Part shown: piece after piece, positions 22,567 through 26,099 of the stretch
Layout of the letters: every line of letters starts with the position of its first letter
Position numbering within the stretch: position 1 is the first letter of the stretch
Assembly: GCF_044324875.1 (NCBI RefSeq)
Contig: NZ_CP172185.1
DNA length: 64,000 nt
Reading direction: 5' to 3' (one strand)
DNA from: Escherichia coli
GTDB taxonomy: Bacteria; Pseudomonadota; Gammaproteobacteria; Enterobacterales; Enterobacteriaceae
The notes under the pieces: model-generated
Seen by the model: the letters and a program-made list of their open reading frames with translations, nothing else
The model's database searches: none
Told to the model about the DNA's origin: nothing
Translations under genes and position numbers: made by a program

Positions 22567-23658
22567 ATGACCGACCTGTTAATCAACGTTCCGTCACCGG
22601 ATATCGAAATCACCATCAACAACAACAGACTCCGTAACGTCACGGAGCGGCTCATGACGCTGTCACTGACCGACAACCGGGGCTTTGAGGCGGACCGCGT
22701 CACCCTGACCATTGACGACGCGGACGGGCAGCTTCAGCTGCCACAGCGCGGCGCACGCCTGAACGTGATGATTGGCTGGCGCGGGGAGGCGCTGGTTAAC
22801 AAGGGTGTCTACATCGTTGATGAAGTGACGTGGGAAGGCCCGCCGGACAAACTGACCATCACCGCCAGCAGCGCCGATTTTCGCGAAGAGTTCAACGTGA
22901 AGCGTGAAGTCTCCTGGCACGACGTGACGGTAAAACAGGTTGTGTCAGCCATCGCGCACCGCTACGGCCTGAAAGCACAGATAAGCGATATCCTCATGGA
23001 TATCGAAATTGACCACGCAGACCAGACCGAAGAGAGCGATATATCCTTCCTGACCCGCATGGCTGAAATGCTGGGTGCGATTGCCACCGTAAAAAACGGC
23101 AGCCTGTTATTCATTCTGCCGGGTGGCGGAACCGGGCCGGACGGAAAAGCCCTGCCTTCGTTCGCCATTACCCGCAGCAGCGGCGACAGTCACCGCTTTC
23201 GCATTGCTGACCGTGATGCGTATACGGGGGTCCGGGCGCACTGGCTCGATCTGAAGTTCGGGCAAAAGAAAAAAGTGAACGTGAAGCGACGCAGGGAAGC
23301 CGGGAAACAGAAACAGGAGAAGAGCAGCAGCCGGGAAGGTGATTACATGGAGGGCGCGGAAGGGAACGTCTACGTTCTGCGCAGGACTTACCAGAATGAA
23401 GAAACCGCACGACGTGCAGCAGCTGCAAAGTGGCAGGAACTACAGCGGGGCGCGGCATCATTCTCCATCACGCTGGCGCGCGGTCGTGCCGACCTGTACC
23501 CTGAAATGCACGGCAGGGTAACAGGTTTTAAAAGCGAGGTGGACAATCAGGACTGGATTATTGCCAGGGTGGAGCACAGCATAGATGAAAGCGGCTTCAC
23601 CACACAACTGGAGCTGGAAGCGAAAATCCCCGAATGGATAGCAGATTCAGGCGGATAA
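22567..23658 (+). CDS. D: Tail protein, P2 gpD-like
   Basis: 363-aa ORF; size and position before ogr; leader CACGAGGGC shared with O gene leader. Confidence 0.8.
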   Translation: MTDLLINVPSPDIEITINNNRLRNVTERLMTLSLTDNRGFEADRVTLTIDDADGQLQLPQRGARLNVMIGWRGEALVNKGVYIVDEVTWEGPPDKLTITASSADFREEFNVKREVSWHDVTVKQVVSAIAHRYGLKAQISDILMDIEIDHADQTEESDISFLTRMAEMLGAIATVKNGSLLFILPGGGTGPDGKALPSFAITRSSGDSHRFRIADRDAYTGVRAHWLDLKFGQKKKVNVKRRREAGKQKQEKSSSREGDYMEGAEGNVYVLRRTYQNEETARRAAAAKWQELQRGAASFSITLARGRADLYPEMHGRVTGFKSEVDNQDWIIARVEHSIDESGFTTQLELEAKIPEWIADSGG

Positions 23659-23701
23659 AATTAAAATGAGCCATCTCCACTCAGCCAGATAAGGAGAAGC
23701 C

Positions 23702-23953
23702 ATGTTCCGTTGTCCCCTGTGCGGTGCATCCGCACGTATCCGCACCAGTCGCAATGAAAATGATTCAGGCACAGTTCGCCTGAAGTACTACCAGTGCAAT
23801 AACCTCGAATGCGGGATCGGCTTTACCACACTGGAGGGTTTTAACAAATTCACATCAAAACGCGCCCCGTCGCCGCAGGGTACAGAGCGGATACCGTGGG
23901 AAGATTTTCCGGGATCTCACAGGGGGAATGCTCAGATGAATCTTGATATTTAA
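23702..23953 (+). CDS. ogr: Ogr/Delta-type zinc-finger late transcription activator
   Basis: MFRCPLCGASARIRTSR...YYQCNNLECG: CxxC...CxxxxC arrangement and N-terminal similarity to recalled P2 Ogr. Confidence 0.8.
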   Translation: MFRCPLCGASARIRTSRNENDSGTVRLKYYQCNNLECGIGFTTLEGFNKFTSKRAPSPQGTERIPWEDFPGSHRGNAQMNLDI

Positions 23954-24002
23954 GAACAATAATCAGGTTGAGAGGACATCATAAGGCAAGTAGATTAACG
24001 GC

Positions 24003-24097
24003 AGATACTTTCCCGCAACCACGGGCAAGTATTTAATTATCCATGATGAAATATGACCTAAATTGTTTTTTGCCCGCCGGAAAGCGGGCATTTTTTT
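24003..24097 (+). ncRNA. Candidate small RNA cassette 1 (promoter TTGAGA-17-TAGATT at 23968-23996; hairpin + U7 terminator 24072-24097)
   Basis: Exact 17-bp spacer; stem GCCCGC/GCGGGC then TTTTTTT; no convincing RBS or ORF; also serves as terminator after ogr. Confidence 0.35.
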
Positions 24098-24311
24098 ATT
24101 CTTTTGTGGTTATGGGGTCATCAGGAACCACGTGCAGATTATATTTTTGTTTTTTTGGCGTTCCTCCGGCAGCAACGAGTTCATCAATAAGACACTGACA
24201 CGCCTGAACATCCCGGGCATGTCTTAGTTTCACCTTTATTGATTTAACCTTATCCTCACCGGAGGAGAAATGCAGTTCAATCTCAATATCGTTTCTTCGG
24301 AACAATCTCAT
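24096..24311 (-). CDS. Hypothetical 71-aa protein (no family recognised)
   Basis: ATG preceded by AGGGGG; MRLFRRNDIEIELHFSSGEDKVKSIKVKLRHARDVQACQCLIDELVAAGGTPKKQKYNLHVVPDDPITTKE; AT-rich upstream region with TATAAT-like elements. Confidence 0.4.
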   Translation of the reverse strand: MRLFRRNDIEIELHFSSGEDKVKSIKVKLRHARDVQACQCLIDELVAAGGTPKKQKYNLHVVPDDPITTKE

Positions 24312-24483
24312 ACGCCCCCCTGAATATATCAGAAATGCTAGTATCGAAAAATGAGAAAACAGTTAGACAGGAGAAACATATTAACACAAATCATTTATAC
24401 CTATAGATGAAATTATAATTTCATTCATGAATATGATAGATAACTATATTGTGAACAAAATGAAAAATGGCTAAATTAAAAAT

Positions 24484-24564
24484 GGGCATGGAGGAATGCC
24501 TCGTAATCAGTAATACATGATCCATACTTCCTTGTTTTGCCCGCCGGAAAGCGGGCATTTTTTT
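24484..24564 (+). ncRNA. Candidate small RNA cassette 1b (promoter TTGTGA-17-TAAATT at 24449-24477; terminator 24539-24564)
   Basis: Same terminator sequence as cassette 1; body shares ATACATGATCCATAC-like segment with the other cassettes. Confidence 0.3.
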
Positions 24565-24668
24565 GGCGGTTACCATCGCCTCACCTTCCTGGTTCACACA
24601 AAGCAACCCTGATTTTCCATGAAAACTTCAGGGTTGAGCCAAAAGCACAAAGACAGTAGATTAACCAA

Positions 24669-24767
24669 GGGTACCCGCCACCTGCCAACAGGAACGGTAT
24701 CCAGTACGTATTAATGACTGACAATTCACATTGCTGTTTTGCCCGCCAGAAGGTGGGCATTTTTTTG
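24669..24767 (+). ncRNA. Candidate small RNA cassette 2 (promoter TTGAGC-17-TAGATT at 24634-24662; terminator 24741-24767)
   Basis: Terminator stem GCCCGCC/GGTGGGC carries substitutions relative to cassettes 1 and 1b that keep pairing; 5' body ACCAAGGGTACCCGCCACCTGCCAACAGGAA. Confidence 0.4.
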
Positions 24768-24871
24768 GCAGTTATCATGGACGCACCTTCATGACACATA
24801 TTAAGCAGACCTGATTTTTCCATGAAAAATTCATGGTTGAGACAAAAGCACAAAAACAGTAGATTAACCAC

Positions 24872-24969
24872 GGGTGCCTGCCACCTGACAACAGGAAGGG
24901 GTGTCCATTATCCATGATATACAAACGAAAAGTCTTGTCTTTTGCCCGCCGTTGCGCGGGCTTTTTTTT
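24872..24969 (+). ncRNA. Candidate small RNA cassette 3 (promoter TTGAGA-17-TAGATT at 24837-24865; terminator 24944-24969)
   Basis: Terminator stem GCCCGC/GCGGGC with different loop (CGTTGC); 5' body ACCACGGGTGCCTGCCACCTGACAACAGGAA ~85% identical to cassette 2. Confidence 0.4.
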
Positions 24970-25366
24970 ATCCAAGAACCCTGTCTGCAGCAACACGCGC
25001 CAGAAATCCAGAGCGGCTACCGTATTCAGGATGAGACTCAACGAACTGATCAATGCGACGAATAAGCAGAGATGGCAGGGTAACATTGATTTTTTCCGAT
25101 TTCCCCATCAGGCGGGACACATCCACCTCAACGAGCGCCCACACTGCATCACTGTATTCAGGATCTGATTGCCATTCATCAAGATTTGTAGCGACAGGGA
25201 TAGACTCACCAGATTCAACCAGTAATTCTACGTGTGCCTCAATGGCTTCACGGGCACTGTCTACCGCATCCTGAAAACTATCACCGCCAGAAAAACAGCC
25301 GGGCAGATCTGGGACGCGAACACCAAAAGATGAATCCCCCCGGTCAATAGCGATTGCATATAACAT
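24968..25366 (-). CDS. hicB: HicB-family antitoxin (N-terminal HicB fold plus C-terminal ribbon-helix-helix)
   Basis: 132-aa ORF MLYAIAIDRGDSSFGVRVPDLPGCFSGGDSFQDAVDSAREAIEAHVELLVESGESIP...KINVTLPSLLIRRIDQFV; GGAGG 5 nt before ATG; 22 nt downstream of hicA. Confidence 0.7.
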   Translation of the reverse strand: MLYAIAIDRGDSSFGVRVPDLPGCFSGGDSFQDAVDSAREAIEAHVELLVESGESIPVATNLDEWQSDPEYSDAVWALVEVDVSRLMGKSEKINVTLPSLLIRRIDQFVESHPEYGSRSGFLARVAADRVLG

Positions 25367-25388
25367 TGAGACCTCCAGAAGGTGGGGC

Positions 25389-25568
25389 TTACAGCCCCGC
25401 CTGTTTCTTAATACTTTTTAAAGTTGGTAAAGGTATATCTTTTTGAGGGTGTTTTACCGTTACCAGCCCCTTCTTTGTCGGATGTTTGAATTGATGATGA
25501 CTCCCCTTAACCCTAACAAGATACCATCCATCCGCCTCTATCATTGCTATTGCACTTTTGCTATCCAT
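25389..25568 (-). CDS. hicA: HicA-family mRNA-interferase toxin (59 aa; absent from ORF track because <60 aa)
   Basis: Manual translation MDSKSAIAMIEADGWYLVRVKGSHHQFKHPTKKGLVTVKHPQKDIPLPTLKSIKKQAGL; matches the recalled HicA pattern GW...GSHH.F.HP...G.VTVPHP.KDL..GTL.SI.KQAGL. Confidence 0.65.
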   Translation of the reverse strand: MDSKSAIAMIEADGWYLVRVKGSHHQFKHPTKKGLVTVKHPQKDIPLPTLKSIKKQAGL

Positions 25569-25588
25569 CCCCCCGTACTCCGTCTTTC

Positions 25589-25617
25589 GTTGTTGGAGTT
25601 ATTATAACCCCAACAAC
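25589..25617. promoter_or_regulatory. Palindrome GTTGTTGG-N13-CCAACAAC upstream of hicA (candidate operator)
   Basis: Perfect 8-bp arms read directly; GGAGTTATTA also repeated at 25595 and 25636. Confidence 0.35.
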
Positions 25618-25767
25618 TAGTCAAAGCAAGGGTTCGGAGTTATTAGAGTTATAGAATAATTGACTGCCTCCCCAAAACTGCGGCAAGAAAAAACCACTGA
25701 CCACGGTCAATTTGTGGATCATGAATTAATTTTTATTTATAAATCAATGCATTATACAAAGAAAAAA

Positions 25768-25787
25768 GGCCGCAGAGCGGCCTTTTT
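25768..25787 (-). terminator. Intrinsic terminator downstream of ihfA (bidirectional hairpin)
   Basis: ggccgcagagcggcc stem-loop flanked by A-run upstream and T-run downstream. Confidence 0.6.
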
Positions 25788-25799
25788 AGTTAGATCAGA

Positions 25800-26099
25800 T
25801 TACTCGTCTTTGGGCGAAGCGTTTTCGACCCGGCTTTTTAACTTCTGCCCGGGTCTGAAGGTCACCACGCGCCGTGCTGTAATGGGAATATCCTCGCCCG
25901 TTTTCGGGTTACGTCCCGGGCGTTGATTCTTATCACGCAGATCGAAGTTACCAAAACCAGAGAGTTTCACCTGTTCGCCGTTTTCCAGAGCGCGACGGAT
26001 CTCTTCGAAAAACAGTTCAACCAGTTCTTTGGCATCCCGCTTGCTAAGCCCAAGCTTATCAAACAGATATTCTGACATTTCAGCTTTTGTAAGCGCCAT
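25800..26099 (-). CDS. ihfA: Integration host factor alpha subunit
   Basis: 99-aa translation [92 protein letters not shown]... recognised as E. coli IHF-alpha. Confidence 0.95.

What the first reader, a model, noticed from the sequence alone, without database searches (positions are those of the whole stretch)
24968..25620. hicA-hicB toxin-antitoxin pair next to the prophage end; toxin gene is invisible to the ORF track
A 59-aa minus-strand ORF (25389-25568) that I translated by hand has the HicA pattern (GW, GSHH-F-HP, VTV-HP-KD, KQAGL). It lies 22 nt upstream of a 132-aa HicB-like ORF with a C-terminal ribbon-helix-helix. A perfect palindrome GTTGTTGG-N13-CCAACAAC sits in the hicA promoter region as a plausible autoregulatory operator. 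TA modules at prophage borders are frequently stabilisation or abortive-infection cargo.
Basis: partly seen in the sequence, partly recalled or inferred. Interest (0 to 1): 0.5.

Follow-up and report, generated by a model that had tools for sequence, protein, structure and literature searches.

The report
Prophage-borne hicAB toxin-antitoxin pair

Summary
A 59-aa ORF (25389-25568, minus) is a full-length HicA toxin (Pfam E 8e-22). Twenty-two nt downstream, a 132-aa ORF (24968-25366, minus) is a full-length HicB antitoxin with a ribbon-helix-helix C-terminus (Pfam E 1e-45). Their closest solved relatives are Burkholderia pseudomallei HicA and HicB. RefSeq already names both proteins in the 4 of 5,426 complete E. 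coli genomes that carry the locus.

Two corrections:
- **Location.** The pair lies inside the prophage, not beside it. The 25-bp att core, which is the ihfA terminator, is at 25758-25782, 190 bp beyond hicA.
- **Operator.** The palindrome at 25589-25617 is real. However, 60 homologous promoters show that only its inner 17 bp (GGGGTTATAATAACTCC, over the -10 box) is conserved. Two direct half-sites upstream of the -35 box (25636-25652) are also conserved. The outer GTTGTT/AACAAC arms are unique to this lineage. The half-site changes together with the HicB beta-strand sequence across subfamilies.

Also seen: a conserved hairpin enclosing the hicA stop codon, and four unannotated sRNA-like units between ogr and hicB.

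Verdict: a known kind, low interest. Toxicity, DNA binding and biological role remain untested.

The parts
25389..25568 (-). hicA, 59-aa HicA toxin (dsRBD-like mRNA interferase family). Gly22, Ser23 and His24 are present.
   Evidence: ORF. Pfam PF07927 E 8.4e-22. PDB 4c26 and 6g26 HicA, E 6e-21 over residues 1-59. PHROG 353 'toxin'. RefSeq WP_029490553.1 is named a HicA family toxin.
24968..25366 (-). hicB, 132-aa HicB antitoxin: an N-terminal partial RNase H-like domain plus a C-terminal ribbon-helix-helix (beta-strand KINVTLP, residues 92-98).
   Evidence: ORF. Pfam PF15919 E 1e-45. PDB 6g1n HicB E 8e-31 over residues 3-128, and Y. pestis HicB3 4p78 E 2e-16. E91-P98 is invariant in 20 homologues. 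RefSeq WP_029490554.1.
25380..25402 (-). Stem-loop AGGCGGGGCU-GUA-AGCCCCACCU that encloses the hicA stop codon, a few nt upstream of the hicB Shine-Dalgarno sequence.
   Evidence: Detected. Folds at -16.2 kcal/mol. Kept with different stem sequences in nearly all diverse homologous loci. Cognate 5'/3' arms fold at mean -16.6 kcal/mol, against -9.2 for chimeras and -8.4 for shuffles.
25372..25376 (-). hicB Shine-Dalgarno GGAGG, 5 nt before the ATG. hicA has only GGAG 9 nt before its ATG, plus a G-run that abuts the ATG.
   Evidence: Read from the sequence. GGAGG is conserved in the enterobacterial-type homologous spacers and replaced by weaker purine runs (AGGAG, AAGGA) in more distant ones.
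25601..25629 (-). Predicted hicAB promoter: -35 TTGCTT (25624-25629), a 17-nt spacer, and -10 TATAAT (25601-25606). The predicted start of transcription is near 25594.
   Evidence: Read from the sequence. It aligns with TTGACA-N17-TATTAT/TATAAT in homologous loci. The consensus scan missed it because the -35 matches only 3 of 6 positions.
25595..25611 (.). O1: the conserved 17-bp inverted repeat GGGGTTAT-A-ATAACTCC, centred on the -10 box. This is the probable main HicB operator.
   Evidence: The core GTTA[TC]-N-ATAAC is at a fixed distance from the ATG in 51 of 60 unique homologous promoters. The half-site changes with the HicB RHH strand. B. pseudomallei HicB binds a palindrome over the -10 box (review).
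25589..25617 (.).
   Evidence: The outer 6 bp are fully complementary only in this window among 51 unique loci; the mode elsewhere is 2 of 6.
25636..25652 (-). O2: two direct half-sites, ATAACTCT and ATAACTCC, 9 bp apart and just upstream of the -35 box. This is a probable second HicB site.
   Evidence: Present in 44 of 60 unique homologous promoters. Four of the eight ATAACYCY matches in 64 kb fall within 58 bp here. An analogous pair of ATACACA(C/A) half-sites is seen in most of the Burkholderia-type loci with readable upstream sequence.
25758..25782 (.). attR core: AAAGAAAAAAGGCCGCAGAGCGGCC, which is the stem and T-run of the ihfA terminator. It is duplicated at the btuC-side junction of the prophage.
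   Evidence: The K-12 empty site aligns to both junctions with a 25-bp overlap. Core-genome identity begins at 25758 in about 5,400 genomes. There is a single copy in the window.
25705..25720 (+). GGTCAATTTGTGGATC: a candidate integrase arm-type site. A near-identical GGTCACTTTGTGGATC lies in the other prophage arm in the same orientation.
   Evidence: Read from the two junction sequences printed. This is an inference only.
24944..24969 (+). Plus-strand terminator (GCCCGCC-N-GCGGGC followed by T8) that abuts the hicB stop codon. It ends the last sRNA-like unit and marks the left edge of the hicAB cassette.
   Evidence: Identity with the LH50-c prophage stops at 24969.

Best explanation
**What it is.** A functional type II hicAB toxin-antitoxin operon of the ribbon-helix-helix kind (Gerdes 'class 4'). 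It is carried as a cassette in the variable slot between ogr and attR of a P2-like prophage integrated into the ihfA terminator.

**How it most likely works (inferred from characterised relatives, not shown here).**
- HicA is a small RNase with a dsRBD-like fold that cleaves mRNA and arrests growth.
- HicB binds HicA through its N-terminal domain and neutralises it.
- HicB oligomers use their RHH domains to repress the single promoter. They would bind O1, an inverted repeat over the -10 box, and probably O2, two direct half-sites upstream of the -35 box.
- Excess HicA would release HicB from the DNA.
- Antitoxin excess in this toxin-first operon is probably helped by a poor hicA ribosome-binding site, a strong hicB one, and perhaps the conserved hairpin at the hicA stop codon.

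**What is shown here.** Gene identities, the intact key residues, purifying selection on both genes, the position inside the prophage, and the conservation of the promoter motifs and their co-variation with the RHH strand.

**What is not shown.** Toxicity, neutralisation, DNA binding, and the benefit to phage or host (prophage retention or abortive infection).
For: - Family membership: Pfam full-length matches and PHROG toxin / HicB-like families in the moron category.
- Solved relatives: B. pseudomallei HicA and HicB, E 6e-21 and 8e-31.
- Key residues: Gly22 and His24 are the residues shown to be needed for toxicity in B. pseudomallei HicA (PMC3969222), and both are present here.
- Selection: against relatives, hicA has 25-31 synonymous and 2 non-synonymous codon differences. 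hicB has 49-59 synonymous and 28-33 non-synonymous. Both genes are therefore under purifying selection.
- Position: att core duplication places the pair inside the prophage.
- Cassette behaviour: a sister prophage carries a different small gene in the same slot, with the junction exactly at the hicB stop. The module is found in 456 viral contigs on mostly non-P2 backbones, and in the same ogr-adjacent position in L041 and L042.
- Promoter motifs: O1 in 51, O2 in 44 and both in 42 of 60 unique promoters.
- Co-variation: half-site ATAACyCC goes with strand KINVTLP, ATAACCAC with K(I/L)NIT(L/M)P in three of six such loci, and TACACAC with RIN(V/I)S(L/I)P in six of seven.
- Literature: the review states that B. 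pseudomallei HicB binds a palindrome overlapping the -10 box, and that Y. pestis HicB3 has two operators, the main one over the -10 box.
Against: - No experiment supports this allele.
- NCBIfam gives no hit for either protein, and PADLOC gives none, so it is not a listed defence system.
- The -35 hexamer is weak (3 of 6), and the promoter scan did not call it.
- The review says an anti-phage role for HicAB still needs experimental validation.
- The primary papers that define the B. pseudomallei and Y. pestis operators were not readable here. The comparison with the experimentally mapped sites therefore rests on a review and on relatives that share 65-89% identity with B. pseudomallei HicB.
Confidence: 0.9

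Rival explanations
1. The full 29-bp palindrome, outer GTTGTT/AACAAC arms included, is the operator. This HicB variant would then recognise a longer site than its relatives do.
For: Six of six extra complementary bp would arise by chance about once in 4,096 loci; only this locus out of 51 shows it. This HicB is only 75-79% identical to its nearest relatives, although HicA is 97% identical.
Against: The RHH beta-strand E91-P98 is invariant across 20 homologues whose promoters lack the outer arms. The downstream arm overlaps a partly conserved 5'-UTR sequence (CCAtCAAgACAAC in relatives), so only the upstream arm is new. The locus was picked because of its palindrome, which is a selection bias.
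Confidence: 0.2
2. The palindrome and the neighbouring repeats belong to the phage attachment site, as integrase, IHF or Cox binding sites. They would then have nothing to do with hicAB regulation.
For: They lie only 140-190 bp from the att core. A separate motif shared by both arms lies at 25705-25720.
Against: The O1 and O2 motifs travel with hicAB at a fixed distance from its ATG. This holds in dozens of phages that have no detectable homologue of this integrase, ogr or gpD. The motifs also change with the HicB RHH strand.
Confidence: 0.04
3. hicAB is a host chromosomal islet next to the prophage and is not part of it.
For: It lies beyond ogr, the last canonical P2 gene, and is separated from it by about 1 kb of non-coding repeats.
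Against: Core-genome identity resumes only at 25758. The 25-bp core is found once at each end of the whole insert, and not between ogr and hicA. All 4 complete genomes with hicAB also carry the prophage sequence.
Confidence: 0.03
4. The pair is an inactive remnant, or HicB alone is the useful product, for example as a phage-borne antitoxin that counters host HicA-based defence.
For: Phages are reported to acquire antitoxins as counter-defence (review).
Against: hicA shows the stronger purifying selection of the two genes, with 2 non-synonymous against 25-31 synonymous codon differences. It keeps Gly22 and His24.
Confidence: 0.05

Closest known systems
Burkholderia pseudomallei K96243 HicAB (PDB 4C26, 6G26, 6G1N, 6G1C)
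   Same: - Toxin-first operon.
- HicA aligns over all 59 residues, with 39 of 59 identical by my count of the alignment (the engineered H24A position counted as His). Gly22, Ser23 and His24 are kept.
- HicB aligns over residues 3-128, including the RHH.
- It is also located on a prophage or island, and its HicB binds a palindrome over the -10 box.
- Relatives of that system share the same design: two direct half-sites plus an inverted pair.
   Different: - HicB is only about half identical.
- The operator half-site is TACACAC rather than ATAACyCC, and the RHH strand is RINVSIP rather than KINVTLP.
- In the Burkholderia-type loci the stop-codon hairpin is followed by a U-run and a longer spacer.
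Citrobacter phage phiNP hicA/hicB (OR565852)
   Same: This is the nearest deposited phage copy. HicB is 75% and HicA 97% identical. It has the same O1/O2 promoter layout, the same stop-codon hairpin and a 23-nt spacer.
   Different: It sits on a different phage backbone, next to tail-fibre genes and a DinI-like gene. It has no outer palindrome arms.
Yersinia pestis HicA3-HicB3 (PDB 4P78)
   Same: HicB has an RHH domain and forms a tetramer. It has two operators flanking the promoter, and the main one lies over the -10 box.
   Different: It is more distant (E 2e-16). It has a 174-bp hicA-hicB spacer, and its operators are two 15-bp inverted repeats rather than one inverted pair plus one direct pair.
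E. coli K-12 HicAB (class 3)
   Same: Same toxin family and gene order. HicB autorepresses, and excess HicA derepresses.
   Different: [quoted passage not shown] The operon has two promoters, one of them CRP-S dependent. It lies at a different chromosomal locus and is not on a prophage.

Membership tests
HicA toxin family (Pfam PF07927) | Full-length match to the family profile | tested here: met
   E 8.4e-22, model positions 3-58 of 58. PHROG 353 'toxin', E 1e-22.
HicA toxin family (Pfam PF07927) | Functionally important Gly22 and His24 in the beta1-beta2 loop | tested here: met
   G22-S23-H24 align with the same residues of B. pseudomallei HicA. G22C and H24A abolish toxicity there (PMC3969222).
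HicA toxin family (Pfam PF07927) | RNase activity and growth arrest on expression | not testable with these tools
   This needs an expression and rescue assay.
HicB antitoxin with C-terminal RHH (class 4 hicAB) | HicB N-terminal partial RNase H-like domain | tested here: met
   Pfam PF15919 E 1e-45. Aligns with the solved N-terminal domain 6g1c, E 2e-18.
HicB antitoxin with C-terminal RHH (class 4 hicAB) | C-terminal ribbon-helix-helix DNA-binding domain | tested here: met
   Residues 89-128 align with the RHH of 6g1n and 4p78. E91-P98 is invariant in 20 homologues. No structure was predicted.
HicB antitoxin with C-terminal RHH (class 4 hicAB) | Toxin-first bicistronic operon with a short spacer | tested here: met
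   hicA lies upstream with a 22-nt spacer, and hicB has a good Shine-Dalgarno sequence.
HicB antitoxin with C-terminal RHH (class 4 hicAB) | HicB binds a palindromic operator in its own promoter | not testable with these tools
   Comparative support only: conserved O1 and O2, and half-site / RHH co-variation.
E. coli K-12-type hicAB (class 3) | HicB with a C-terminal helix-turn-helix domain | tested here: not met
   The C-terminus aligns with RHH-type HicB structures only. No K-12 HicB structure appeared among the PDB matches.
Cargo of a P2-like prophage | Lies between the duplicated att cores of the element | tested here: met
   The 25-bp core is at 25758-25782 and at the btuC junction, and the empty site is in K-12. 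P2-type genes gpD and ogr lie directly to the left.
Catalogued anti-phage defence system (PADLOC-DB 2.0) | Match to a model of a known or candidate defence system | tested here: not met
   No family at E <= 0.01 for HicA, HicB or the neighbouring 71-aa ORF.

The most novel reading that the evidence does not exclude
The conserved stem-loop that encloses the hicA stop codon is kept with compensatory changes from Enterobacteriaceae to Burkholderia, and is terminator-like in several lineages. It could be an unrecognised cis-regulatory element that sets the HicA:HicB ratio in toxin-first RHH-type operons. It might act as an attenuator or processing site, or as a double-stranded RNA target for HicA itself, which has a dsRNA-binding-domain fold.
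Probability: 0.15. Interest if true: 0.45.

Novelty: already known. Interest (0 to 1): 0.15.

Why it matters
It matters little on its own: this is one more annotated hicAB pair on a temperate phage. Three points have modest value.
- It shows that the slot between ogr and attR of this P2-like phage group exchanges small cargo cassettes.
- It gives a concrete two-site operator model, with coordinates, that can be tested by gel shift.
- Comparison across about 70 loci suggests a shared regulatory layout for RHH-type hicAB operons: direct half-sites, an inverted pair over the -10 box, and a stop-codon hairpin. I did not find this layout described in the papers I could read.

Tried and rejected
- **NCBIfam:** no hit for either protein at E <= 0.01. 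The RefSeq names must come from other evidence.
- **PADLOC:** no hit.
- **Rfam on 23600-25900:** nothing for hicAB. The only hit above threshold is STnc540 at the ihfA 3' end.
- **Promoter scan:** it did not call the hicA promoter because the -35 matches only 3 of 6 positions. The promoter was placed by alignment with homologous promoters instead.
- **The repeat finder:** It was confirmed by pattern search.
- **Operator papers:** the primary papers for B. pseudomallei (JBC 2018) and Y. pestis (J Bacteriol 2014) are not held. A literal search for the operator sequence found no relevant paper.
- **Hairpin alignment:** the MAFFT alignment was out of register because loop lengths differ. It was replaced by a test of cognate against chimeric arms.
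- **RelE-type pair:** I first mapped a RelE-type toxin pair of the reference prophage into the window. That was wrong. The window is about 1.4 kb longer than NZ_OY754371.1 between the portal gene and hicB, and it starts after that pair.
- **Palindrome as a terminator for ihfA read-through:** rejected. It folds at -17.2 kcal/mol, but no U-run follows it.

Full report
**Observation**

The minus strand carries a 59-aa ORF at 25389-25568 and a 132-aa ORF at 24968-25366, separated by 22 nt. The small ORF is missed only because it is one residue short of a 60-aa listing threshold.

Pfam gives full-length matches: HicA_toxin at E 8.4e-22 and HicB_lk_antitox at E 1e-45. PHROGs places both in toxin / HicB-like families of the moron category.

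The closest solved structures are B. pseudomallei HicA (4c26 and 6g26, E about 1e-20, all 59 residues) and HicB (6g1n, E 8e-31, residues 3-128 including the ribbon-helix-helix). Y. pestis HicB3 follows. Gly22 and His24, whose mutation abolishes toxicity in the Burkholderia protein (PMC3969222), are present.

The palindrome GTTGTTGG-N13-CCAACAAC is at 25589-25617. It is unique in the window, with 0.03 expected by chance.

**It is already annotated**

The 1.2-kb region occurs in 4 of 5,426 complete E. coli genomes. In all four, RefSeq names the two genes as HicA family toxin and HicB family antitoxin. The exact HicB sequence is on at least 1,000 contigs of the large protein collection. In Gerdes' classification it is a class 4 operon: toxin first, and HicB with a C-terminal RHH (PMC10865869).

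**Where it sits**

The left neighbours are gpD and ogr of a P2-like prophage. The right neighbours are ihfA and pheT.

- Core-genome identity with about 5,400 E. coli genomes begins at 25758.
- Aligning the K-12 empty btuC-ihfA site to both junctions gives a 25-bp overlap, AAAGAAAAAAGGCCGCAGAGCGGCC. This is the ihfA terminator stem plus its T-run.
- That core occurs once in the window, at 25758-25782.

hicAB is therefore inside the prophage, and its start codon is 190 bp from the attR core.

A sister prophage integrated next to copA in strain LH50-c is identical up to 24969. From there it carries a different 73-aa ORF instead of hicAB. This position is therefore a cargo slot with a sharp junction at the hicB stop codon.

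Relatives of the module occur in 456 viral contigs, mostly on backbones with no detectable gpD, ogr or integrase homologue. Two of them (L041, L042) have the same position next to ogr. The nearest deposited phage copy is in Citrobacter phage phiNP.

**The operator**

I extracted the region upstream of hicA from 66 loci, which gave 60 unique sequences.

- **O1.** Fifty-one of the 60 carry GTTA[TC]-N-ATAAC at a fixed distance from the ATG, within the consensus GGrGTTAT-N-ATAACyCC. It is centred on the -10 hexamer.
- **O2.** Forty-four of the 60 carry two direct ATAACyCy half-sites 9 bp apart, just upstream of the -35 box. Forty-two carry both O1 and O2.
- **In the window.** O1 is at 25595-25611 and O2 at 25636-25652. 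The promoter is TTGCTT-N17-TATAAT at 25601-25629.
- **Clustering.** Four of the eight ATAACYCY matches in the 64-kb window fall within these 58 bp.
- **Outer arms.** Beyond 8 bp from the centre, complementarity is at chance level in the other loci. Only the window has 6 of 6 matches there.
- **Burkholderia-type loci.** Loci whose HicB is 65-89% identical to B. pseudomallei HicB have the same layout with a different half-site. An inverted GTGTGTA-N4-TACACAC lies over the -10 box in all seven with readable upstream sequence. Two direct ATACACA(C/A) half-sites lie upstream of the -35 box in most of them.
- **Co-variation.** The half-site type tracks the RHH beta-strand. KINVTLP goes with ATAACyCC. 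K(I/L)NIT(L/M)P goes with ATAACCAC in three of six such loci. RIN(V/I)S(L/I)P goes with TACACAC in six of seven.

A review reports that B. pseudomallei HicB binds a palindrome overlapping the -10 box. It also reports that Y. pestis HicB3 uses two operators, the main one over the -10 box (PMC11594946). Together this makes O1 and O2 the probable HicB sites.

**Are the genes alive?**

Against four relatives, hicA differs at 25-31 synonymous but only 2 non-synonymous codons. hicB differs at 49-59 synonymous and 28-33 non-synonymous codons. Both are under purifying selection, the toxin much more strongly.

**Mechanism (inferred)**

- HicA is a small mRNA-cleaving toxin.
- HicB neutralises it and, through its RHH domains, represses the promoter at O1 and O2.
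- Excess HicA releases HicB from the DNA, as reported for the B. pseudomallei and E. coli systems.
- hicA has only a GGAG 9 nt from its ATG. hicB has GGAGG 5 nt from its ATG. This would favour an excess of antitoxin.

The biological role, whether prophage retention or abortive infection, is not addressed by any evidence here. PADLOC has no model matching either protein. The review states that an anti-phage role for HicAB still needs validation.

**Extra features**

*Stop-codon hairpin.* A stem-loop at 25380-25402 encloses the hicA stop codon.
- It is kept in nearly all diverse homologous loci, with different stem sequences and compensatory changes.
- A U-run follows it in the Pasteurellaceae-type and Burkholderia-type loci.
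- Cognate arms fold at a mean of -16.6 kcal/mol, against -9.2 for chimeras and -8.4 for shuffled 3' parts.
- Its function is unknown.

*sRNA-like units.* Four paralogous units lie on the plus strand between ogr and hicB. Each has a promoter-like site, a body of about 95 nt and a conserved terminator.
- They have no Rfam family and no match in deposited phages.
- They occur, unannotated, in 30 of 5,426 E. coli genomes.

**Verdict**

This is a known kind of system that public records already annotate, so interest is low.

Noticed in passing
window 23966-24969 (+): units at about 23966-24097, 24433-24564, 24632-24766 and 24835-24969: Four paralogous sRNA-like units lie between ogr and hicB. Each has a sigma70-like promoter (TTGAGA-N17-TAGATT), a body of about 95 nt (5' stem-loop, then an A/U-rich linker) and a conserved terminator, TTTTGCCCGCC-N-GGCGGGCA-T7/8. 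They have no Rfam family and no match in deposited phages. They are present but unannotated in 30 of 5,426 complete E. coli genomes.
   Followed up: partly
window 25380-25402 (-): A stem-loop encloses the hicA stop codon. It is conserved with compensatory changes across enterobacterial, Pasteurellaceae-type and Burkholderia-type hicAB loci, and is terminator-like in the latter two.
   Followed up: yes
window 25703-25858 (-), with the att core at 25758-25782: The prophage att core is the ihfA terminator, and integration rebuilds it. Rfam STnc540 scores above its gathering threshold here (43.1 against 38 bits), and the match runs across the junction into phage DNA.
   Followed up: partly
window 24968-25568, compared with loci L005-L046: The toxin is far more conserved than the antitoxin. 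HicA is 95-97% identical in most of these loci and HicB only 74-79%. That is 2 non-synonymous codon differences against about 30, at similar synonymous divergence.
   Followed up: partly
window 24969/24970; L003 6270-6522: There is a sharp cassette junction at the hicB stop codon. A sister prophage next to copA (strain LH50-c) is identical up to that point. It then carries an unrelated 73-aa ORF of unknown function and a different attachment site.
   Followed up: partly
window 24096-24311 (-): A 71-aa ORF lies inside the sRNA-like repeat region. RefSeq annotates it as hypothetical. It matches only PHROG 14142, of unknown function, and has no PADLOC hit.
   Followed up: partly
L002 6640-7780 and 16273-17780 (NZ_OY754371.1, outside the window): In the reference genome the same prophage carries further small cargo. 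Two hypothetical genes (125 and 257 aa) lie between attL and the integrase gene. A DUF6516 gene with a regulator, and a RelE-family toxin with an HTH gene, lie between the replication gene and the portal gene.
   Followed up: no
window 248-24700, compared with NZ_OY754371.1: The window is about 1.4 kb longer than the reference record between the portal gene and hicB. In the reference the tape-measure gene is annotated as an incomplete pseudogene, so the window may hold an intact copy.
   Followed up: no
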